Part shown: positions 48,201 through 49,232 of the stretch, piece by piece
How positions within the stretch are numbered: position 1 is the stretch's first letter
How the letters are laid out: each line of letters begins with the position of its first letter
Assembly (NCBI GenBank): GCA_050613775.1
Contig: JBODTK010000014.1
Span: forward strand, 744,001 to 808,000
Direction of reading: 5' to 3'
Origin: Neocallimastix sp. 'constans'
Lineage: Eukaryota
Length of the DNA stretch: 64,000 bases
Program-made: the position numbers and the translations under genes
The notes under the pieces: model-generated
The model's input: only the letters and a program-made list of their open reading frames with translations
Databases searched by the model: none
Told to the model about the DNA's origin: nothing

Positions 48201-49232
48201 TTTCTATTAATATTTTTAATTATTTAATTATTTAATATTATATATATTATATTATATATATAAATATTTAGTATATTAAAGGCTTACATTTTATTTAATT
48301 CTTTTAAATTAAACAATTCAACAGGAAGGTTTGTTATTGTATTGTTAGATAGATCTCTATAAATTTTAAATAAATATTAAAAATAATGAAAAATATATTA
48401 AAAAAATGATAATAAATAATTATAATTATTAATATATATATATATACATTTAATTTTATAATAATATTATCTAATAATTATTATATATATATTTTTACAA
48501 AACTTCCAGCCCTGCTAAGTTTGTTATAGATGGCGGAATAATCTCGATTTGATTAGAATGAAGAACTCTTATTATTTATTTAAGTTAAAATTTTACTTAT
48601 TTGTTTATTTATTAAAGAAATTAATATTATATAGGTATATAATTTATAAAATCCTTACAAATTTTTTAAACTAGGTAATTCAAGTATACTAGAAGGTATT
48701 TCTTTCATTGGATGTTCAGTTAAACGTCTATTTATTATGTATATATTTATTAATATATTAAAAATCATATATGTAATTCAATATATTTACATAATTATAT
48801 CAATATCTTAATTTTTACAATGTTTCTAGTCTTGTAAATTTTGGAAATTGTAAAAAATTATAATTTTTGAAACCCCTCCTTCATATATATTATATTTAAT
48901 AATGAAAAATATTTATTTTTATATTCAGTTATATATATTTTAATATTCTTTCATAAAGTAATAAATATGCTATTATATTTAAATTATTACACTCCAAGAA
49001 ATGTAATATATCCTTCATTATCACATTTTATTCCTTCTTTATTGCAGCAATCATTATTATTCGTAAAAACCAAATTGAAATAGGAACATACTTCATAACA
49101 ATCTCCTTGTTTTATAGGAATGGATCCAATACCAAGTCCCTGAATTCCTTGTCCTGATACTGTGTAGTAAAAGGATAATATATTTTCTAAAGATAGTAAT
49201 AATACAAAATGAAGTAGTTTCATTTTTTTCAT
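45201..49232 (-). CDS. LRR receptor-like single-pass membrane protein, copy 3 (~855 aa, 12 exons, 9 x 69-nt LRR exons)
   Basis: Exons: 49232-48991, 48878-48819, 48727-48659, 48567-48499, 48356-48288, 48203-48135, 48011-47943, 47797-47729, 47605-47537, 47375-47307, 47182-47114, 46845-45201. All introns are GT-AG, phase 2, and the total is 2568 nt in frame. Same architecture as copy 1. Confidence 0.88.

What the first reader, a model, noticed from the sequence alone, without database searches (positions are those of the whole stretch)
48288..49232. Ectodomain exons diverge almost only by non-synonymous changes while introns are nearly identical
Hand comparison of copies 1 and 3: exon 1 has 8 nt differences, exon 2 has 5 and exon 3 has 6, and all 19 fall in codons whose amino acid changes. 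Exon 4 is identical. Exon 5 has 3 non-synonymous changes and 1 synonymous. Introns 1-3 (~290 nt) differ at only about 3 positions. Many changes lie at the x positions of xxLxLxxN (YLTKH to RLTEH, GLSSN to GLHAN/GLYAN, YLGNN to DLSKN, DIGFN to GIDFN). These residues form the concave ligand-binding face of LRR solenoids (established). Inference: diversifying selection or exon-targeted gene conversion, as expected of an arms-race receptor.
Basis: partly seen in the sequence, partly recalled or inferred. Interest (0 to 1): 0.85.

Follow-up and report, generated by a model that had tools for sequence, protein, structure and literature searches.

The report
Fast-evolving surface receptor in gut fungus
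Two nearly identical neighbouring copies of a gut-fungus gene for a predicted cell-surface leucine-rich-repeat protein differ mainly by amino-acid changes, concentrated on the likely ligand-binding face, the pattern expected of an immune-type receptor of a kind that reviews say fungi lack.

Summary
Copies A (33001-29368) and C (49232-45201) differ at 23 of 509 sites in exons 1-5 (22 non-synonymous, 1 synonymous) but at 4 of 520 intron sites. The non-synonymous rate (5.6%) is about 6 times that of a flanking duplicate of similar GC (0.9%) and 3-4 times the neutral expectation after correcting for AT-biased mutation. Across the LRR exons, pN/pS is about 4 at concave-face positions, 1.1 at other exposed positions and 0.1 in the core. 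Most tested differences recur in other assemblies; copy C's exon-3 letters were not seen again. The host is Neocallimastix or a close relative. The gene has a signal peptide, one 23-residue LRR per phase-2 exon (7 in A, 9 in C), cysteine caps, one transmembrane helix, an Asn-rich tail without kinase and a terminal PPxY motif shared by relatives. Best reading: a receptor-like protein diversified by exon-pair duplication plus positive selection. Exon-targeted conversion from an outside donor is not supported.

The parts
48991..49232 (-). Copy C exon 1: predicted signal peptide and cysteine N-cap; 8 differences to copy A, all non-synonymous
   Evidence: both exon-1 types exact in other assemblies
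48819..48878 (-). Copy C exon 2 (60 nt, AAG acceptor): cap strand to first LRR; 5 differences, all in changed codons
   Evidence: gap-free match to full-length relative P0013; both types in run X1
48659..48727 (-). Copy C exon 3, 69-nt LRR exon; 6 differences, all non-synonymous
   Evidence: only the A-type letters were seen in runs X1 and X14
48499..48567 (-). Copy C exon 4, 69-nt LRR exon, identical in A and C
48288..48356 (-). Copy C exon 5, 69-nt LRR exon; 3 non-synonymous and 1 synonymous difference
47114..48203 (-). Copy C exons 6-11: six more 69-nt LRR exons (48203-48135, 48011-47943, 47797-47729, 47605-47537, 47375-47307, 47182-47114) of two alternating types; one pair more than copy A, from an internal duplication of two exons with their introns
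45201..46845 (-). Copy C last exon: C-cap with four cysteines, transmembrane helix (about 46598-46533), basic stop-transfer stretch, 443-residue tail with 29% Asn, PPEY at about 45224-45213
29368..33001 (-). Copy A, complete paralog, 10 exons, 7 LRR exons, 841 aa
37157..38753 (-). Copy B, last exon only, nearly identical to copy C's; cut at the (AAT)n tract of the last intron
38864..43986 (.). Flanking duplicate (decayed copia-like sequence) matching 18557-23314; part of it served as the composition-matched neutral control (0.9% divergence, GC 23%)

Best explanation
The stretch is the 5' half of a tandemly duplicated Neocallimastix gene predicted to encode a single-pass cell-surface leucine-rich-repeat protein, whose two copies differ almost only by amino-acid changes, likely because selection favours new binding specificities on the concave face. 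Shown: gene anatomy, one 23-residue LRR per symmetric phase-2 exon, 7 versus 9 LRR exons, the non-synonymous excess, its concentration at concave positions, a conserved core, and a family of relatives with the same layout and a terminal PPxY. Inferred: repeat number changes by unequal crossing-over of exon-intron pairs; point changes on the concave face and caps are fixed by positive selection; the ligand is a variable non-self molecule of the gut community (bacterium, archaeon, virus, protist or rival fungus); having no kinase, the protein would work like a plant receptor-like protein, passing the signal or the bound cargo on through a partner and through Rsp5/Nedd4-type WW-domain binding at PPxY (ubiquitination, endocytosis; motif function recalled, not tested).
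For: 22 N: 1 S in exons 1-5 against 4/520 intron and 22/2409 flank differences; 3.1-4.1 times the fully neutral expectation under AT-biased mutation; unambiguous ectodomain 31 N: 2 S vs cytoplasmic tail 11 N: 8 S, p 0.003; site classes over six exon groups: concave 26 changes pN/pS 4.1 (p 2e-4), other exposed 1.1, core 0.11; organism B contig: 6 listed changes in exon 1, all non-synonymous, giving third residues at positions 66 and 69; model of relative P0013 (pLDDT 87) puts the strands at the exon-junction positions that vary; relatives share cap-LRR-cap-TM layout, differ in repeat number by 46-residue steps, and 5 of 10 examined have [PL]PxY; intron 1 position shared with a distant relative (P0141/P0142 vs P0143).
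Against: Only two full copies; no codon site model. The dN/dS test within exons 1-5 alone is marginal (p 0.03-0.05) and concave enrichment there is not significant (p 0.13; colinear pairs p 0.075); the strong concave signal comes from exons 6-10, whose pairing is blurred by internal duplication and whose counts use crude weights. Two changes lie in the predicted signal peptide, where ligand selection is not expected. The 200-240 bases upstream of the start differ by 4-5%, as much as the exons. Copy C's exon-3 letters were not seen in either DNA run laid. The organism B contig has depth 4.4, may be a paralog, and 2 of its 8 differences are unlisted. Near-identical members of four related clusters show no LRR variation (0 changes in LRR positions). 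Expression of this gene is not shown.
Confidence: 0.6

Rival explanations
1. Opsin-type history: the duplication is older than the introns suggest; frequent A-C gene conversion erases intron and silent differences while selection keeps two different binding faces. Selection on residues is still needed, but as protection rather than acceleration.
For: Same pattern described for red/green opsins (PMC3924837 passages). Five single-contig exon-1 mosaics of A and C with no new residue; organism B has C's residue 100 next to A-type residues 91 and 101-123; exon 4 and exon A9/C11 identical; proximal upstream 4-5% divergent.
Against: Introns (0.8%), far upstream (1.3%), downstream (0.4%) and the flanking duplicate (0.9%) agree on about 1%, as a young duplication predicts. 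Protected tracts should hold linked silent differences; only 1 is seen. The mosaics are what chimeric short-read assembly of two 97% identical copies would give.
Confidence: 0.18
2. Exon-targeted conversion from an unseen paralog or from its cDNA wrote the differences into the exons.
For: Differences cluster across exon junctions (residues 100-102 across intron 2; 169/171 across intron 5); an intact-looking LINE reverse transcriptase lies next to copy A; copy C's exon 3 carries 6 changes where organism B equals copy A.
Against: The junction lies in the concave strand, so selection predicts the same clustering. A donor under ordinary constraint would bring silent changes (1 of 23 seen). No intron is lost. 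No close donor in protein searches; the whole genome was not available, so this is weak.
Confidence: 0.1
3. No positive selection: GC-richer exons mutate faster in an AT-biased genome, local rates vary, constraint is relaxed after duplication, and the rest is chance.
For: 17 of 23 exon differences are between a G/C and an A/T base; composition correction halves the excess from about 7 to 3-4 times; proximal upstream as divergent as the exons; copy C has Cys in place of a usually aromatic cap residue 49.
Against: Relaxation cannot exceed the neutral rate; the GC-matched flank diverged 0.9%; the LRR core is protected (0 of 57, p 1e-5); concave vs other exposed positions differ; the tail shows pN below pS.
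Confidence: 0.07
4. Same selection, other function: the protein is an adhesin or surface coat that is itself the target of a parasite, virus or toxin, or a self/non-self marker between fungal individuals, so the face varies to escape or to discriminate rather than to detect microbes. A and C could also be two alleles set in tandem by the assembler.
For: No signalling domain in the tail; closest solved folds include Leptospira LRR proteins and internalins besides plant receptor ectodomains; A and C exon-2 types at similar depth (24 and 30) in run X1.
Against: A conserved terminal PPxY implies regulated turnover or signalling; the LINE insertion and partial copy B between the copies look like true tandem history. 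Neither point excludes this reading.
Confidence: 0.25
5. The differences are consensus errors.
For: C-type exon-3 letters not seen in the two DNA runs laid; exon 5 untested.
Against: Both exon-1 types exact in other assemblies (C on 15+5 contigs, A on 11+1); both exon-2 types and A-type exon 3 in run X1; errors would not spare introns, silent sites and the LRR core.
Confidence: 0.02

Closest known systems
Plant LRR receptor-like proteins (tomato Cf-4/Cf-9 type; details recalled, general description in PMC2939053)
   Same: Signal peptide, capped extracellular LRR array, one TM helix, no kinase; tandem paralogs; repeat-number change; excess non-synonymous change at xxLxLxx positions.
   Different: 23-residue SHOC2/bacterial-like repeats without the GxIP plant motif; one repeat per exon; 440-475-residue Asn-rich tail with PPxY instead of a short tail; fungal host; no ligand or co-receptor known.
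Ectocarpus ROCO LRR genes (PMC3341825)
   Same: One LRR per fixed-length exon, exon shuffling, positively selected sites on the concave face, clustered young duplicates.
   Different: ROCO proteins carry a ROC-COR GTPase and use 72-nt exons, with spare LRR exons in introns; here 69-nt exons, a membrane-anchored ectodomain and no spare exons in the window.
[quoted passage not shown]
   Same: Arrays of equal-length LRR exons with phase-2 introns, unequal crossing-over, LINE elements nearby.
   Different: 90 vs 69 nt; thousands of genes there, two and a fragment seen here; the LINE here lies outside the gene.
Jawless-fish variable lymphocyte receptors
   Same: Capped LRR solenoid with a variable concave face.
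   Different: VLRs are assembled somatically from cassettes; here only two exon-1 types and their mosaics were found and no cassette bank.
Neocallimastigomycota 'L domain-like' LRR-TM proteins (ORY24151.1 / KAG4096113.1; Pecoramyces EP00833_P001460)
   Same: Same cap-LRR-cap-TM layout.
   Different: About 30% identical to P0013; automatic names only, no function or selection analysis found in the searches run.

Membership tests
LRR receptor-like protein (architecture) | N-terminal signal peptide | tested here: inconclusive
   Hydrophobic N-terminus aligned with those of relatives; no signal-peptide predictor run
LRR receptor-like protein (architecture) | Extracellular LRR array with cysteine caps | tested here: met
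   Exon peptides fit the 23-residue register; relative P0013, 54% identical over 329 aligned residues, has LRR_8/LRR_4 and folds as a capped solenoid
LRR receptor-like protein (architecture) | Single transmembrane helix after the LRRs | tested here: met
   Hydrophobic 22-residue stretch followed by a basic run in the last exon
LRR receptor-like protein (architecture) | No cytoplasmic kinase or TIR domain | tested here: met
   Pfam scan of the last exon finds only a weak TM match
LRR receptor-like protein (plant family) | Plant-specific 24-residue repeat with GxIP, short tail | tested here: not met
   Repeats are 23 residues without GxIP; tail 443-475 residues
Pattern-recognition / arms-race receptor | Positive selection on the ligand-binding face | tested here: met
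   Counting tests only: concave pN/pS 4.1, p 2e-4; no site model
Pattern-recognition / arms-race receptor | Binds a non-self ligand and triggers a response | not testable with these tools
   No ligand or response data
Pattern-recognition / arms-race receptor | Expressed and spliced as modelled | tested here: inconclusive
   Two RNA-type runs laid nothing on exons 1-4 (no proof of absence); intron-free relatives on 1.2-2.4 kb contigs match the spliced model
LRR receptor-like kinase | Cytoplasmic protein kinase | tested here: not met
VLR-type somatic diversification | Cassette bank and many new variants within a population | tested here: not met
   9 of 9 exon-1 cluster members use only A or C residues; no spare LRR exons in the window; whole genome not available
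DGR, RIP or deaminase-driven hypermutation | One dominant base change | tested here: not met
   Spectrum mixed: A/G 10, C/T 5, A/T 4, C/G 2, G/T 1, A/C 1

The most novel reading that the evidence does not exclude
Anaerobic gut fungi carry their own repertoire of cell-surface LRR immune receptors, built from frame-preserving one-repeat exons that are duplicated, lost and possibly skipped in splicing, tuned by positive selection on the concave face, and signalling without a kinase through a PPxY-bearing, Asn-rich tail; this would overturn the view that fungi have no extracellular LRR pattern-recognition receptors and give candidates for how these fungi tell partner methanogens from enemies.
Probability: 0.3. 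Interest if true: 0.85.

Novelty: new variant of a known kind. Interest (0 to 1): 0.62.

Why it matters
A 2010 survey found LRR receptors absent from 43 of 49 fungi (PMC2939053) and a 2022 review repeats that fungi do not seem to harbour extracellular LRR pattern-recognition receptors (PMC9119436). LRR receptor kinases have since been noted in chytrids (PMC13618815), without selection data in the passages seen. A membrane-anchored LRR protein of a rumen-type fungus with the concave-face signature of plant and algal recognition genes gives a concrete, testable candidate: two natural variants that differ at about 20-50 surface residues can be compared for binding to gut microbes, and the 69-nt phase-2 exon makes the whole repertoire easy to count in existing genomes. 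The evolutionary pattern itself is well known from other kingdoms.

Tried and rejected
No whole genome is held, so paralogs outside the window could not be counted. Word-index protein searches with exon 1 (longer proteins) and the C-cap/TM part found nothing; the metagenome contig scan with exon 1 found no locus, so no third full gene was available as DNA. The HMMER search with exon 1 gave 4 hits: the exon itself, one true relative (P0013) and two unrelated proteins set aside (P0011, P0012). Of 120 listed hits to P0013 (of 307), 9 were picked by eye for the family alignment by cap, TM and C-cap; the rest were generic LRR proteins. Near-identical members of four relative clusters gave no LRR differences to test. 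Reads were laid on exons 1-4 only; exons 5-12 remain unchecked against reads. The single-sequence fold left the caps unresolved. The Atlas gave only generic LRR clusters. Earlier-findings look-ups were empty. A hypermutation signature and somatic cassette assembly were looked for and not found. The window's spliced protein was not folded; positions were mapped by repeat register and by the relative's model.

Full report
Setting. The window is about 83% AT. A neighbouring M18 aminopeptidase (58652-60055) falls in a 90% cluster with Neocallimastix californiae and N. lanati proteins, and the gene's DNA is held by animal faeces metagenomes, so the host is Neocallimastix or a close relative. No whole genome was available.

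Anatomy. Three copies lie on the minus strand: A 33001-29368 (10 exons, 841 aa), B 38753-37157 (last exon only) and C 49232-45201 (12 exons, 855 aa). All introns are phase 2 and interrupt the codon of the central strand leucine; each LRR exon is 69 nt, one 23-residue repeat, 7 in A and 9 in C. The repeats alternate between two types, and C has one extra pair with its introns. The last exon encodes a cysteine C-cap, one hydrophobic helix, a basic run and a 443-475-residue tail with about 30% Asn that ends in PPEY (LPEY in B). No kinase or TIR domain is found. The model is supported by an intron-free relative, P0013, 54% identical over 329 aligned residues and gap-free across exon 2, and by a shared intron-1 position in a more distant relative. 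Splicing of this gene itself is not shown: two RNA-type runs laid nothing on exons 1-4.

Observation. pN is 5.6%, pS 0.9% (binomial p 0.025). Because exons are GC-richer (27%) than introns (8%) I fitted an AT-biased neutral model from non-coding DNA: it expects 5.4-7.1 non-synonymous changes, 22 are seen (3.1-4.1 times; p 7e-4 with introns alone as background). Part of the flanking duplicate, GC 23%, differs at 22 of 2409 sites (0.9%; Fisher p 1e-8). Unambiguous ectodomain parts give 31 N: 2 S, the cytoplasmic tail 11 N: 8 S, most of the silent ones in repeats that align loosely (p 0.003). Against: the 200-240 bases upstream of the start differ by 4-5%, and adding exons 6-8 in one best pairing lowers pN/pS to 1.5 (not significant).

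Are the letters real? Both exon-1 types are exact in other assemblies (C on 15+5 contigs, A on 11+1); five further members, one contig each, are mosaics of A and C with no new residue and are probably assembly chimeras, though true recombinants are not excluded. Run X1 has both exon-2 types (depth 24 and 30) and the A-type exon 3; the C-type exon 3 was seen in neither DNA run, and contigs drop variants, so it is unverified. X1 may be related to the window's source. Run X14, recorded as another organism, matches A over most of exons 2-4 but has a contig (depth 4.4, 8 differences, 6 listed) whose six listed exon-1 changes are all non-synonymous and give third residues at positions 66 and 69; it may be a paralog.

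Where the changes lie. Over the whole array it is 16 of 37 vs 7 of 63 (p 3e-4), core 0 of 57. Pooling six groups of related exons, pN/pS is 4.1 at concave positions (26 changes, p 2e-4), 1.1 at other exposed positions and 0.11 in the core; colinear pairs alone give 5.9 but p 0.075. These are counting tests with crude weights and without a tree. That the concave face binds ligand is established for other LRR proteins (PMC3341825 passages) and inferred here.

Family. Nine relatives picked from 120 listed hits share the layout and differ in repeat number by steps of 46 residues, the same two-repeat unit as A vs C; two carry names (Neocallimastix 'L domain-like protein', Pecoramyces). Five of ten examined have [PL]PxY in the tail; some of the others may be cut short. 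Near-identical members of four clusters show no LRR differences, so fast change is not shown for the whole family. The closest solved folds are Leptospira LRR proteins, SHOC2, plant receptor ectodomains and internalins, at 18-36% identity: a generic solenoid.

Mechanism. Most likely the gene duplicated recently with its flank (about 1% background), changed repeat number by unequal crossing-over between exon-intron pairs, which phase-2 symmetry keeps in frame, and fixed point changes on the binding face and caps under selection. The mixed base-change spectrum argues against a DGR, RIP or deaminase. Conversion from an outside donor or cDNA would bring silent changes or lose introns; neither is seen, although a LINE with an open 1365-codon frame and a 15-bp target duplication sits beside copy A. 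The opsin-type rival, conversion between copies homogenising introns while selection guards exon differences (PMC3924837 passages), cannot be excluded. What is bound is unknown; detection of gut microbes is my best guess, with adhesion, escape from a parasite or allorecognition as live alternatives. The role of PPxY as an Rsp5/Nedd4 WW-binding motif is recalled, not tested.

Literature. PMC2939053 (parts 1-2 of 5 read; supplementary species list not seen): LRR receptors absent from 43 of 49 fungi, five examples left in four species. PMC9119436 (passages): fungi do not seem to harbour extracellular LRR receptors. PMC13618815 (passages): LRR receptor kinases in chytrids. PMC6004548 (passages): LRR domains abundant in anaerobic fungal genomes. 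PMC5168858 (passages): membrane proteome of gut fungi, no 'LRR' or 'leucine' in the main text; supplements not read and may list such proteins. PMC6414434 (one table row): a gene annotated 'LRR receptor-like' is among the ten most down-regulated in methanogen co-culture; not shown to be of this family. PMC6564038 (passages) regards its 90-bp phase-2 LRR exon arrays as unique to Tetrahymena. PMC10197012 (passages): nothing on surface LRR receptors in the passages shown. Searches found no paper describing this family or selection on it; the library lacks most subscription journals.

Verdict. Real, exact and beyond chance; selection on the ectodomain likely (about 0.8 including the opsin-type variant); receptor function inferred. 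A known evolutionary pattern in a kingdom where such receptors were said to be missing: new variant of a known kind, interest 0.62.

Noticed in passing
window 23315-28239 (ORF 27526-23432, minus): LINE retrotransposon with an open 1365-codon endonuclease-RT frame, poly-A tail and 15-bp target duplication; the empty site is preserved in the duplicate at 43972-43986, so it inserted after the duplication.
   Followed up: partly
window 18557-19067, 38759-39372, 46850-47074, 31113-31292: Long (AAT)n tracts: copy B's last exon runs into the tract that starts the flanking duplicate, suggesting recombination between microsatellites made the partial copy.
   Followed up: partly
window 45204-46200 and 29371-30450 (minus): Cytoplasmic tail has QN runs, four 11-residue PQNNY repeats and 13-19 copies of an 18-nt unit coding NNMNMG-like hexapeptides whose number differs among A, B and C; possibly prion-like or amyloid-forming, possibly only AT-rich drift.
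   Followed up: no
window 49233-49482 vs 33002-33241: The proximal upstream region differs by 4-5%, four times the background; regulatory divergence or a conversion boundary.
   Followed up: partly
window 49166-49161 (residues 23-24): Two adjacent residue changes in the predicted signal peptide, not explained by ligand selection.
   Followed up: no
window 58652-60055: Intron-free M18 aminopeptidase region with higher GC (38%), clustering with Neocallimastix proteins; the enzyme looks bacterial in type (recalled), a possible old gene transfer.
   Followed up: partly
window 10598-17288: Long low-complexity gene with C2H2 zinc-finger-like motifs split by an intron.
   Followed up: no
window 18557-23314 and 38864-43986: Decayed copia-like gag/integrase fragments, duplicated with the receptor gene; similar low-complexity stretches recur at 35268-36202 and 51286-51833 near the duplication junctions.
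   Followed up: partly
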